Source: Escherichia coli
GTDB taxonomy: Bacteria > Pseudomonadota > Gammaproteobacteria > Enterobacterales > Enterobacteriaceae
DNA: 64,000 nucleotides
Direction: 5' to 3' (one strand)
Assembly: GCF_041248615.1 (NCBI RefSeq)
Contig: NZ_CP158426.1
Of this stretch, positions 30,001 through 33,000 are shown piece after piece. The position numbers were made by a program. Numbering within the stretch: position 1 is the first letter of the stretch; each line of letters starts with the position of its first letter.

Positions 30001-33000
30001 CTACTACATTGTCGGCCTGCTGGCAGAAGCGTTCCTCGAAAAAAATCCCGGCGCGAAGATCATCCACGATCCACGTCTCTCCTGGAACACCGTTGATGTG
30101 GTGACTGCCGCAGGCGGCACCCCGGTAATGTCGAAAACCGGACACGCCTTTATTAAAGAACGGATGCGCAAGGAAGACGCCATCTACGGTGGCGAAATGA
30201 GCGCCCACCATTACTTCCGTGATTTTGCCTACTGCGACAGCGGCATGATCCCGTGGCTGCTGGTCGCCGAACTGGTGTGCCTGAAAGGGAAAACGCTGGG
30301 CGAACTGGTGCGCGACCGGATGGCAGCGTTTCCGGCAAGCGGTGAGATCAACAGCAAACTGGCGCAACCCGTTGAGGCAATTAATCGCGTCGAACAGCAT
30401 TTTAGCCGTGAGGCGCTGGCGGTGGATCGCACCGATGGCATCAGTATGACCTTTGCCGACTGGCGCTTTAACCTGCGCTCCTCCAACACCGAACCGGTGG
30501 TGCGGTTGAATGTGGAATCACGCGGTGATGTGCCGCTGATGGAAGCGCGAACGCGAACTCTGCTGACGTTGCTGAACGAGTAATGTCGGATCTTCCCTTA
30601 CCCCATTGCGGGTAAGGGGCTAATAACAGGAACAACGATGACAAATCTAAAAAAGCGCGAGCGAGCGAAAACCAATGCATCGTTAATCTCTATGGTGCAA
30701 CGCTTTTCAGATATCACCATCATGTTTGCCGGACTATGGCTGGTTTGCGAAGTCAGCGGACTGTCATTCCTCTACATGCACCTGTTGGTGGCGCTGATTA
30801 CGCTGGTGGTGTTCCAGATGCTGGGCGGCATCACCGATTTTTATCGCTCATGGCGCGGTGTTCGGGCAGCGACAGAATTTGCCCTGTTGCTACAAAACTG
30901 GACGTTAAGCGTGATTTTCAGCGCCGGACTGGTGGCGTTTAACAATGATTTCGACACGCAACTGAAAATCTGGCTGGCGTGGTATGGGCTGACCAGCATC
31001 GGACTGGTGGTTTGCCGTTCATGTATTCGCATTGGGGCGGGCTGGCTGCGTAATCATGGCTATAACAAGCGCATGGTCGCGGTGGCGGGGGATTTAGCCG
31101 CCGGACAAATGCTGATGGAGAGCTTCCGTAATCAGCCGTGGTTAGGGTTTGAAGTGGTGGGCGTTTACCACGACCCGAAACCGGGTGGCGTTTCTAACGA
31201 CTGGGCGGGCAATCTGCAACAGCTGGTCGAGGATGCGAAAGCGGGCAAGATTCATAACGTCTATATCGCGATGCAAATGTGCGACGGCGCGCGAGTGAAA
31301 AAACTGGTCCATCAATTGGCGGACACCACCTGTTCGGTGCTGCTGATCCCCGATGTCTTTACCTTCAACATTCTCCATTCCCGTATCGAAGAGATGAACG
31401 GCGTACCGGTGGTGCCGCTTTACGATACGCCGCTTTCCGGGGTTAACCGCCTGATAAAACGTGCGGAAGACATTGTGCTGGCGACGCTTATCCTGCTGCT
31501 GATCTCCCCGGTGCTGTGCTGTATTGCGCTGGCGGTAAAACTCAGTTCACCAGGACCGGTTATTTTCCGCCAGACTCGCTACGGCATGGATGGCAAGCCG
31601 ATCAAAGTGTGGAAGTTCCGTTCGATGAAAGTGATGGAGAACGACAAAGTGGTAACTCAGGCGACGCAGAACGATCCGCGCGTCACCAAAGTGGGGAACT
31701 TTCTGCGCCGCACCTCGCTGGATGAATTGCCGCAGTTTATCAATGTGCTGACCGGGGGGATGTCGATTGTCGGTCCACGTCCACACGCGGTGGCGCATAA
31801 CGAACAGTATCGCCAGCTCATTGAAGGCTACATGCTGCGCCATAAGGTGAAACCGGGCATTACCGGCTGGGCGCAGATTAATGGCTGGCGTGGCGAAACC
31901 GACACGCTGGAGAAAATGGAAAAACGCGTCGAGTTCGACCTTGAGTACATCCGCGAATGGAGCGTCTGGTTCGATATCAAAATCGTTTTCCTGACGGTGT
32001 TCAAAGGTTTCGTTAACAAAGCGGCATATTGATATGAGCTTACGTGAAAAAACCATCAGCGGCGCGAAGTGGTCGGCGATTGCCACGGTGATTATCATCG
32101 GCCTCGGGCTGGTGCAGATGACCGTGCTGGCGCGGATTATCGACAACCACCAGTTCGGTTTGCTTACCGTGTCGCTGGTGATTATCGCGCTGGCAGATAC
32201 GCTTTCTGACTTCGGTATCGCTAACTCGATTATTCAGCGAAAAGAAATCAGTCACCTTGAACTCACCACGTTGTACTGGCTGAACGTTGGGCTGGGGATC
32301 GTGGTGTGCGTGGCGGTGTTTTTGTTGAGTGATCTCATCGGCGACGTGCTGAATAACCCGGACCTGGCACCGTTGATTAAAACATTGTCGCTGGCGTTTG
32401 TGGTGATCCCCCACGGGCAACAGTTCCGCGCGTTGATGCAAAAAGAGCTGGAGTTCAACAAAATTGGCATGATCGAAACCAGCGCGGTGCTGGCGGGCTT
32501 CACTTTTACAGTGGTTAGTGCCCATTTCTGGCCGCTGGCGATGACCGCGATCCTCGGTTATCTGGTCAATAGTGCGGTGAGAACGCTGCTGTTTGGCTAC
32601 TTTGGCCGCAAAATTTATCGCCCCGGTCTGCATTTCTCGCTGGCGTCAGTGGCACCGAACTTACGTTTTGGTGCCTGGCTGACGGCGGACAGCATCATCA
32701 ACTATCTCAACACCAACCTTTCAACGCTGGTGCTGGCGCGTATTCTCGGCGCGGGCGTGGCAGGGGGATACAACCTGGCGTACAACGTGGCCGTTGTGCC
32801 GCCGATGAAGCTGAACCCAATCATCACCCGCGTGTTGTTTCCGGCATTTGCCAAAATTCAGGACGACACCGAAAAGCTGCGCGTTAACTTCTACAAGCTG
32901 CTGTCGGTGGTGGGGATTATCAACTTTCCGGCGCTGCTCGGGCTGATGGTGGTGTCGAATAATTTTGTACCGCTGGTCTTTGGTGAGAAGTGGAACAGCA

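What the first reader, a model, noticed from the sequence alone, without database searches (positions are those of the whole stretch)
30596..30617. 8-bp GC-rich hairpin in the cpsG-wcaJ spacer
Seen in sequence: 'ccttaccc' pairs with 'gggtaagg' across a 6-nt loop in the 54-bp gap between cpsG and wcaJ, with no T-tract. It is in the same class as the wzxC-wcaK stem-loop: a possible mRNA processing or stability determinant separating the sugar-nucleotide genes from the assembly genes.
Basis: seen in the sequence. Interest (0 to 1): 0.2.

Follow-up and report, generated by a model that had tools for sequence, protein, structure and literature searches.

The report
Conserved hairpin between cpsG and wcaJ
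A small, real RNA/DNA hairpin sits between two genes of the E. coli colanic-acid (slime) operon; it has been preserved by matching mutations across related bacteria and is a stripped-down relative of the 'BoxC' repeats, but it is an ordinary kind of inter-gene stem-loop whose role (most likely protecting the upstream message from degradation) is still untested.

Summary
The hairpin is real. It spans window 30594-30619, with 9 Watson-Crick pairs (CCCTTACCC/GGGTAAGGG) plus an outer U·G, loop CATTGC, and -17.1 kcal/mol. It lies in the 54-nt cpsG-wcaJ spacer and has no T-tract.

It is not a chance palindrome.
- Across Escherichia, Salmonella and Citrobacter, 98% of stem cells pair, and 3 of 10 pairs show double (compensatory) changes.
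- The stem is 87% identical, against 46% for the loop and 52-72% for neighbouring third-codon positions.
- 77 of 78 enterobacterial cpsG-wcaJ spacers carry a stable helix at the same place.
- In 22 of these spacers, and in about 515 E. coli genomes, that helix is a BoxC/PIT/TMECO triplex-motif repeat.

The window's hairpin fails the BoxC definition: it has no third block and is single-copy. It looks like a minimal version of the same C-arm/G-arm palindrome.

It is not an intrinsic terminator, a REP element or an Rfam family, and it does not occlude the wcaJ ribosome site.

My best reading, which is inferred, is a U-tract-less protective stem-loop. It would block 3'→5' exonucleases and so stabilise the upstream sugar-nucleotide segment. 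No transcript-end data for this operon could be found.

This is an ordinary finding of low interest.

The parts
30581..30583 (+). cpsG stop codon (TAA)
   Evidence: ORF 29165..30583. Annotated as cpsG in matching E. coli records.
30584..30593 (+). 10-nt linker between the stop codon and the base of the hairpin
   Evidence: Sequence. It is 69% identical across the Escherichia/Salmonella/Citrobacter alignment. In 78 orthologous spacers the structured domain starts a median of 10 nt after the stop codon.
30594..30603 (+). 5' arm of the hairpin (UCCCUUACCC), pyrimidine-rich
   Evidence: Folds. Pair counts. 87% identity across 12 non-E. coli sequences.
30604..30609 (+). Loop (CAUUGC), free to vary
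   Evidence: 46% identity across species. Most E. coli polymorphisms fall here.
30610..30619 (+). 3' arm of the hairpin (GGGUAAGGGG), purine-rich
   Evidence: Folds. Compensatory changes at 3 of 10 pairs.
30620..30627 (+). A/U-rich single-stranded linker (CUAAUAAC). This is an inferred site where a downstream cleavage or exonuclease stop would leave the hairpin at the 3' end.
   Evidence: Unpaired in the minimum-energy folds. The role is inferred and was not tested.
30628..30640 (+). wcaJ Shine-Dalgarno (AGGA, 30628-30631) and start codon (30638-30640)
   Evidence: The block ACAGGAAC[A/C]ACGATG is 96% identical across species. Its opening energy is 2.1-3.4 kcal/mol, among the lowest of 17 gene starts in the operon.
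30563..30589 (+). Candidate second hairpin spanning the cpsG stop codon (uncertain)
   Evidence: Predicted in the 141-nt fold. 87.5% of cells pair and 2 pairs covary, but this is not beyond shuffles, and coding constraint confounds the test.

Best explanation
The feature is a structure-constrained stem-loop in the untranslated spacer between cpsG (the last GDP-mannose/fucose precursor gene) and wcaJ (the initiating glucose-1-phosphate transferase). It is transcribed as part of the polycistronic colanic-acid mRNA. It is a minimal, single-copy relative of the BoxC/PIT/TMECO family of C-arm/G-arm palindromes that fill this same spacer in other Enterobacteriaceae.

It most likely acts at the RNA level as a U-tract-less protective stem-loop. 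Transcription reads through it. When the mRNA is cleaved or terminated further downstream, 3'→5' exonucleases (PNPase, RNase II) trim back and stall at its base, at about 30619. The wza...cpsG segment would then outlive the wcaJ-wzxC... segment. wcaJ itself would be translated from its own open ribosome-binding site rather than by coupling to cpsG.

What is shown: the hairpin exists, it is conserved with covariation, it has no terminator features, and the wcaJ ribosome site is predicted to be open. What is inferred: the exonuclease-barrier function and the descent from BoxC.
For: Structure: the stem has 10 pairs at -17.1 kcal/mol. Orthologous hairpins have similar energies of -17.2 to -22.8 kcal/mol.

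Constraint:
- 98% of cells pair.
- 3 of 10 pairs have changes on both sides: A-U↔G-C in 7 sequences, C-G↔U-A in 3, and U-A↔C-G in 1.
- Versions of the structure slid by 1-3 columns pair only 44-66% of cells.
- Stem identity is 0.87, against 0.46 for the loop, 0.65-0.69 for the flanks and 0.52-0.72 for third-codon positions of the adjoining genes outside Escherichia.
- Within E. coli, variation falls in the loop, the loop-closing pair and the flanks.

Position: 77 of 78 orthologous spacers have a helix of at least 6 bp. It starts a median of 10 nt after the stop codon and ends a median of 21 nt before the ATG.

Not a terminator or promoter: no T-tract and no promoter-like site.

General mechanism: stable stem-loops lacking U-tracts mark steady-state 3' ends in E. 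coli and protect against PNPase and RNase II (PMC6061677).

Operon pattern: the other large gaps in this operon also hold stem-loops, including a canonical REP element after wzc.

Ribosome site: the wcaJ site has one of the lowest opening energies in the operon.

BoxC link:
- 22 of 78 orthologous spacers match the published TMECO pattern with at most 1 mismatch (pattern from PMC4666352).
- About 515 E. coli genomes replace 30588-30624 with a palindromic BoxC pair whose outer arms (CCCTCACCC...GGGTGAGGG) align with the hairpin arms.
- Holder et al. describe palindromic TMECO sites collapsing to plain stem-loops.
Against: There is no direct transcript evidence. The accessible Term-seq supplements have no entries for the cps genes searched, probably because the operon is silent in standard cultures.

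The strand test is weak. Predicted G·U pairs number 114 on the mRNA strand and 86 on the other strand, and the hairpin itself folds equally well on the minus strand. An RNA-level role is therefore not demonstrated over a DNA-level one.

The compensatory changes trace to perhaps three evolutionary events in one clade.

One Citrobacter genome has lost the hairpin while wcaJ still encodes a full-length-matching product (L028), so the hairpin is dispensable.

Holder et al. report that Maher's group found no promoter or terminator activity for BoxC/PIT elements. No RNase E consensus site is evident by eye in the flanks.
Confidence: 0.45

Rival explanations
1. It is a functionless relic. The hairpin would be the decayed remnant (outer arms only) of a BoxC/TMECO-type palindromic repeat that once occupied the spacer. 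Its symmetry would be kept by DNA-level processes, such as template-switch correction of quasi-palindromes or gene conversion, rather than by selection on RNA. The spacer exists only because the element is there.
For: - BoxC/TMECO elements or other palindromes (REP-like, tandem arrays) fill the same spacer in many genera, with high turnover.
- E. coli is itself polymorphic between the hairpin and a BoxC pair.
- Holder et al. found no functional association for these elements and describe a 'palindrome effect' that leaves stem-loops.
- The hairpin folds equally well on both strands, and the strand test is weak.
- The hairpin is deleted in L028.
- Hairpins are very common in E. coli non-coding DNA: 2163 in MG1655 according to PMC4666352.
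Against: - The stem is far more conserved than synonymous sites (0.87 against 0.52-0.72), while the loop is not (0.46).
- Hairpins of similar stability persist at one position in 77 of 78 spacers, even where the sequence has been replaced.
- The hairpin is present in Salmonella (L010), a genus in which Holder et al. report TMECO to be absent.
Confidence: 0.3
2. It acts on translation. One possibility is that it hinders ribosomes terminating at the cpsG stop codon, as reported for REP elements within about 15 nt of a stop codon (Liang, Rudd & Deutscher 2015; cited from my own knowledge, paper not retrievable here). The other is that it uncouples wcaJ translation from cpsG and insulates the wcaJ ribosome site.
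For: - The hairpin starts 10-11 nt after the stop codon. In 64 of 77 orthologous spacers the helix starts 15 nt or less after the stop codon.
- The wcaJ ribosome site is predicted to be unusually open (2.1-3.4 kcal/mol, rank 2-3 of 17). Breaking the stem in silico raises the opening cost to 5.0 kcal/mol.
- A short-context fold pairs UCU with the GGA of the Shine-Dalgarno sequence. One covarying pair supports a 5'-flank:SD helix.
Against: - The SD pairing disappears in longer contexts.
- The flank:SD helix has a permanent C·C mismatch and rests on a single covariation event.
- The stop-to-hairpin distance varies from 0 to 44 nt among species.
- There are no data on CpsG tagging or WcaJ translation.
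Confidence: 0.13
3. It is a transcriptional pause or partial attenuator just upstream of the initiating transferase gene, read through with the help of RfaH. This would be analogous to the stem-loop after wzc and before wbaP in group 1 capsule clusters.
For: - Stem-loop attenuators are described in cps clusters directly upstream of the initiating transferase, and after wzc in the colanic-acid operon (PMC3438125 and PMC2516531).
- The hairpin lies directly upstream of wcaJ.
Against: - There is no U-tract, and no terminator call.
- The documented attenuator position after wzc is occupied here by a REP element.
- BoxC/PIT elements were reported to lack terminator activity.
Confidence: 0.08
4. It is a chance palindrome with no evolutionary significance.
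For: Perfect hairpins of at least 9 bp occur about 2.3 times per 64 kb in shuffled sequence. The 54-nt spacer as a whole has z = -1.85 only.
Against: Cross-species conservation with compensatory changes, and positional conservation in 77 of 78 spacers.
Confidence: 0.02

Closest known systems
BoxC / PIT elements / TMECO intrastrand-triplex motif (Bergler 1992; Hoyne & Maher 2000; Holder et al. 2015, PMC4666352)
   Same: Both are intergenic. Both have a pyrimidine 9-mer arm first, a 3-6 nt loop, and then the complementary purine 9-mer. CCCTTACCC-N6-GGGTAAGGG differs from CCCTCNCCC-N3-6-GGGNGAGGG by one transition per arm, and the two transitions compensate each other. The same genomic slot holds true BoxC elements in 22 of 78 related genomes and in about 515 E. 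coli genomes. The published 'palindrome effect' yields plain stem-loops of this kind.
   Different: The hairpin lacks the third (second G-rich) block that defines the triplex motif. It is single-copy in each genome. It is also present in Salmonella, where TMECO is reported to be absent. It is conserved rather than unstable.
Protective 3' stem-loops of Rho-dependent or processed transcripts (Dar & Sorek 2018, PMC6061677) and REP mRNA stabilisers
   Same: Both are stable GC-rich stem-loops with no U-tract. The hairpin lies in an operon-internal untranslated gap just after a stop codon, and another gap of the same operon holds a REP element.
   Different: No 3' end has been mapped here. The sequence is unrelated to REP. 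The hairpin lies between two co-transcribed genes rather than at the end of an operon.
Stem-loop attenuator after wzc in group 1 capsule and colanic-acid clusters (Rahn & Whitfield 2003, from my own knowledge; mentioned in PMC3438125 and PMC2516531)
   Same: Both are stem-loops in a polysaccharide operon. In group 1 clusters the stem-loop lies immediately upstream of the initiating transferase gene.
   Different: The location in the operon differs (cpsG-wcaJ, not wzc-wcaA). There is no U-tract, and attenuation was not tested.

Membership tests
BoxC / PIT / TMECO | Three-block pattern CCCTCNCCC-N3-6-GGGNGAGGG-N3-GGGNGAGGG (PMC4666352) | tested here: not met
   A regex on the window spacer finds no match even with 3 substitutions on either strand, because the third block is absent. 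The two-G-block core pattern has no match in the whole window with up to 2 mismatches.
BoxC / PIT / TMECO | Multi-copy dispersed repeat (23 copies in MG1655) | tested here: not met
   The 40-nt hairpin query finds a median of one place per genome in 4129 E. coli genomes.
BoxC / PIT / TMECO | Intergenic location, with a C-rich 9-mer arm 5' of its complementary G-rich arm and a 3-6 nt loop | tested here: met
   CCCTTACCC-CATTGC-GGGTAAGGG lies in the cpsG-wcaJ spacer. Each arm matches the block consensus at 8 of 9 positions.
BoxC / PIT / TMECO | Forms an intrastrand purine-motif triplex | not testable with these tools
   This needs CD, NMR or footprinting. It is also structurally impossible without a third block.
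REP / BIME | Match to the REP consensus palindrome | tested here: not met
   The REP consensus search (up to 3 mismatches) hits only 18733-18762 in the window and nothing at 30594-30619.
Intrinsic (Rho-independent) terminator | GC-rich stem-loop immediately followed by a U-tract | tested here: not met
   The stem is present, but it is followed by CUAAUAAC. There is no terminator call at this site on either strand.
U-tract-less protective 3' stem-loop (Dar & Sorek type) | Energetically stable stem-loop not followed by a U-rich sequence | tested here: met
   -17.1 kcal/mol and no U-tract.
U-tract-less protective 3' stem-loop (Dar & Sorek type) | Steady-state RNA 3' end mapped immediately downstream, with PNPase/RNase II-dependent trimming | not testable with these tools
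   No entries for the cps genes searched appear in the accessible 3'-end supplements. Other supplements are not held.
Any Rfam RNA family | Covariance-model match | tested here: not met
   Only a spurious sub-threshold hit elsewhere in 30000-31200. Nothing credible was found for the long allele either.
Conserved structured RNA element (generic) | Base pairs maintained by compensatory substitutions across species | tested here: met
   98% of cells pair, 3 of 10 pairs have double changes, and 0 of 500 shuffles reach the observed covariation score. Caveat: there are few independent events.

The most novel reading that the evidence does not exclude
The cpsG-wcaJ spacer may be a positionally conserved, selection-maintained slot for BoxC-family structures across Enterobacteriaceae, ranging from a plain hairpin through nested palindromes to tandem arrays. 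If so, it would give these orphan repeats, known since the 1990s with no assigned function, their first concrete biological context: an RNA-level module that sets the expression ratio between sugar-nucleotide synthesis and the initiating transferase WcaJ. The natural E. coli hairpin/BoxC polymorphism would then be a ready-made allelic series for testing it.
Probability: 0.12. Interest if true: 0.5.

Novelty: new member of a known kind. Interest (0 to 1): 0.22.

Why it matters
On its own this is one more intercistronic stem-loop in a well-studied operon. Its modest value has two parts.

First, it marks the boundary between the precursor genes and the assembly genes of colanic-acid synthesis. 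Differential mRNA stability there could tune how much of the potentially toxic initiating transferase is made.

Second, the locus offers a rare case where a BoxC/TMECO site is orthologous across many genera and polymorphic within E. coli. This makes the long-unanswered question of whether BoxC does anything directly testable with isogenic allele swaps.

Tried and rejected
- **Rfam** at a permissive E-value, on the window region and on the long allele: nothing relevant.
- **Promoter and terminator scan:** nothing at the site.
- **Same class as the wzxC-wcaK stem-loop:** rejected on sequence, since that hairpin is AT-rich and unrelated.
- **Dispersed repeat in E. coli:** rejected, because the hairpin is single-copy.
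- **Strand-of-action test** (G·U versus A·C): only a slight bias, 114 against 86, so inconclusive. Whole-spacer plus/minus energy differences, with 52 of 78 spacers favouring the plus strand, are confounded by flanking pairs.
- **Occlusion of the wcaJ Shine-Dalgarno sequence or an RNA-thermometer idea:** a short-context fold and one covarying pair hinted at it. Longer contexts show the ribosome site is among the most open in the operon, so I rejected this as the main role.
- **Second hairpin across the stop codon:** not distinguishable from coding constraint.
- **Literature:**
  - No paper found mentions a cpsG-wcaJ stem-loop.
  - 3'-end datasets have no entries for the cps genes searched, or are not held.
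  - No follow-up work on TMECO function was found.
  - The Liang 2015 REP-translation paper could not be retrieved.
  - The first BoxC keyword search returned irrelevant papers.
- **RNase III target:** rejected from general knowledge, because a 10-bp stem is too short.
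Full report
**The observation.** The window at 30581-30640 reads TAA-tgtcggatct-TCCCTTACCC-cattgc-GGGTAAGGGG-ctaataac-AGGA-acaacg-ATG. 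C30595-G30618 adds a ninth Watson-Crick pair and U30594·G30619 adds a wobble pair. RNAfold gives this 10-pair hairpin as both the minimum-energy and the centroid structure, at -17.1 kcal/mol. As DNA it gives -8.6 kcal/mol.

The flanking ORFs end at 30583 and start at 30638. Matching E. coli RefSeq records annotate them as cpsG and wcaJ, so the 54-nt gap is right. No T-tract follows on either strand, and the terminator and promoter scans call nothing at the site.

**Is it more than chance?** Within one genome the hairpin is only mildly unusual.
- The isolated 34-nt segment has z = -3.2.
- The whole spacer has z = -1.85.
- Perfect hairpins of at least 9 bp occur 5 times in the window, against 2.3 ± 1.7 in shuffles.
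- Holder et al. count 2163 comparable hairpins in the non-coding DNA of MG1655.

Comparative data settle the question. I fetched 80 enterobacterial wcaJ loci and extracted 78 cpsG-wcaJ spacers.

In an alignment of 15 Escherichia, Salmonella and Citrobacter sequences:
- 98% of stem cells form standard pairs.
- 3 of 10 pairs carry changes on both sides: A-U↔G-C in 7 sequences, C-G↔U-A in 3, and U-A↔C-G in 1.
- Versions of the structure slid by 1-3 columns pair only 44-66% of cells.
- No shuffle reaches the observed covariation score.

Identity to the window averages 0.87 in each stem arm, 0.46 in the loop and 0.65-0.69 in the flanks. Third-codon positions of the adjoining 300 nt of cpsG and wcaJ are 0.52-0.72 identical outside Escherichia. 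Within E. coli, sampled haplotypes differ in the loop, the loop-closing pair and the flanks, and the lower stem is invariant. A conserved or compensated stem with a free loop is the classical signature of a constrained structure. The caveat is that the compensatory changes probably represent only about three events.

**What the neighbourhood shows.**

*Helices at the same position.* 77 of 78 spacers contain a helix of at least 6 bp. It begins a median of 10 nt (IQR 6-13) after the stop codon and ends a median of 21 nt (IQR 18-25) before the ATG. Hairpin energies are similar across genera, from -17.2 to -22.8 kcal/mol.

*Sequence of the element.* The sequence differs between genera:
- CCTTTGCCC/GGGCAAAGG in the C. 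freundii group;
- CCCCTCTCCC/GGGGGAGGGG in Leclercia;
- CCTCTCCCCG/CGGGGAGGG in Kosakonia;
- long nested forms, CCCCTCACCC-N3-CCCTCTCCCC-N4-GGGGAGAGGG-N3-GGGTGAGGGG, often duplicated, in Enterobacter, Kluyvera, Buttiauxella and others.

*Identity of the long forms.* The long forms are the repeat known as BoxC, PIT element or TMECO. Its published pattern is CCCTCNCCC-N3-6-GGGNGAGGG-N3-GGGNGAGGG, and it occurs in palindromic type A plus type B pairs (PMC4666352). 22 of the 78 spacers match that pattern with at most 1 mismatch.

*Polymorphism in E. coli.* E. coli is itself polymorphic at this site:
- 4129 of 5426 complete genomes carry the short hairpin as a single-copy sequence.
- About 515 genomes replace window 30588-30624 with a ~117-nt element.
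- That element is a degenerate inverted type-A unit plus an intact type-B TMECO.
- Its 56-nt core recurs elsewhere in E. coli genomes, for example upstream of yagE in K-12.
- Its outer arms (CCCTCACCC...GGGTGAGGG) align with the arms of the short hairpin (CCCTTACCC...GGGTAAGGG). The two differ by one mutually compensating transition per arm.

*Which form is older.* Salmonella and Citrobacter share the short form and its flanks with E. coli, so the short form is ancestral for that clade and the E. coli BoxC allele is secondary. More distant genera mostly carry BoxC forms, and Holder et al. report palindromic TMECO sites collapsing into plain stem-loops. I therefore infer, without proof, that the short hairpin is a reduced BoxC-type palindrome.

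**What it is not.**
- **Not a BoxC/TMECO member.** It has no third block and is single-copy.
- **Not a REP element.** The REP consensus hits only 18733-18762, in the wzc-wcaA gap.
- **Not an intrinsic terminator**.
- **Not an Rfam family**.
- **Not related in sequence to the wzxC-wcaK hairpin,** which has an AT-rich 11-bp stem.

Functionally, though, all four large gaps in the operon carry stem-loops shortly after the upstream stop codon. This fits the general picture that operon-internal gaps are occupied by palindromic elements.

**Mechanism.** Several things can be said with confidence. When the operon is transcribed, the spacer is part of the mRNA and a -17 kcal/mol hairpin will form. It starts 10-11 nt past the stop codon, roughly at the edge of a terminating ribosome (from my general knowledge of ribosome footprints), so it can stay folded while cpsG is translated. 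It has no features of a terminator.

Dar & Sorek showed genome-wide that such U-tract-less stem-loops define steady-state 3' ends and protect against PNPase and RNase II. I therefore favour an exonuclease-barrier or stabiliser role for the upstream precursor-gene segment. wcaJ would be translated independently. Its ribosome site has an opening energy of 2.1-3.4 kcal/mol, rank 2-3 of 17 gene starts, comparable to the first gene wza and to wcaK, which is also preceded by a hairpin-containing spacer. This part is inference. I found no 3'-end data for these genes.

**Rivals.**
- **Neutral BoxC relic** maintained by DNA-level palindrome correction. This cannot be excluded. The G·U versus A·C strand test is only weakly skewed (114 against 86), the hairpin folds equally well on the opposite strand, one Citrobacter genome has deleted it (L028), and no function has ever been found for BoxC.
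- **Translational role.** This has weak support: the hairpin is close to the stop codon, a short-context fold pairs the Shine-Dalgarno sequence, and one pair covaries. Longer-context folds contradict it.
- **Attenuator role,** by analogy with the stem-loop after wzc. The hairpin lacks the U-tract such a role would need.

**Novelty and verdict.** I found no paper describing this hairpin, but its kind is well known. The new points are its relationship to BoxC and the orthologous conservation of a BoxC-type slot across genera. These are of interest mainly to people who work on bacterial repeats. Overall this is a real, conserved but ordinary intercistronic stem-loop, and its interest is low.

Noticed in passing
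window 18733-18762 (wzc-wcaA gap, 18705-18796): A canonical REP element (an exact match to the REP consensus on the minus strand) fills the gap after wzc. This is probably the 'stem-loop attenuator after wzc' mentioned in the literature.
   Followed up: partly
window 33513-33548 (wzxC-wcaK gap): An AT-rich 11-bp hairpin (GUUGUUGUUUU...AAAACAACAAC) starts directly after the wzxC stop codon. It is unrelated in sequence to the cpsG-wcaJ hairpin.
   Followed up: partly
window 29112-29215 (cpsB-cpsG gap): Three small predicted hairpins lie in the ~100-nt gap, with z = -1.9. Their conservation was not examined.
   Followed up: no
L001 439-556, L004 and L005 (E. coli); replaces window 30588-30624: About 515 of 5426 complete E. 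coli genomes carry a ~117-nt palindromic BoxC/TMECO pair instead of the short hairpin, while the flanks are otherwise identical. This is a natural allelic series.
   Followed up: yes
L014 and L015, ~1340-1500 (Citrobacter youngae CCUG 30791; Citrobacter sp. Cu233): cpsG is reduced to a ~35-codon remnant ORF (N-terminus fused to the C-terminal ...RTRTLLALLNQ). The spacer hairpin and the wcaJ start are retained.
   Followed up: no
L028 1456-1494 (Citrobacter sp. MGH106): The spacer is only 39 nt and most of the hairpin is deleted. This is the only one of the 78 spacers without a helix of at least 6 bp.
   Followed up: partly
L055 1245-1458; L029 1324-1458: In two Enterobacteriaceae genomes the spacer has expanded into tandem arrays of BoxC-like units: 65 nt × 3.3 copies in one, and 41-43 nt × 3.1 copies in the other.
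   Followed up: partly
window 30563-30589: A candidate second hairpin spans the cpsG stop codon (CUGACGUUGCU-GAACG-AGUAAUGUCGG). 87.5% of cells pair and 2 pairs covary, one of which pairs a first-codon-position change (Thr→Ala) with a non-coding change. This is not beyond shuffles.
   Followed up: partly
window 7993-8019, 21253-21274, 40625-40648, 57177-57202: These are the other perfect hairpins of at least 9 bp in the window. The one at 57177-57202 (CGGATGCG...CGCATCCG) looks REP-like.
   Followed up: no
L064 ~1400-1500 (Leclercia adecarboxylata NCTC13032): There is an apparent frameshift near the 3' end of cpsG, which could be a pseudogene or an assembly error. The spacer hairpin is intact.
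   Followed up: no
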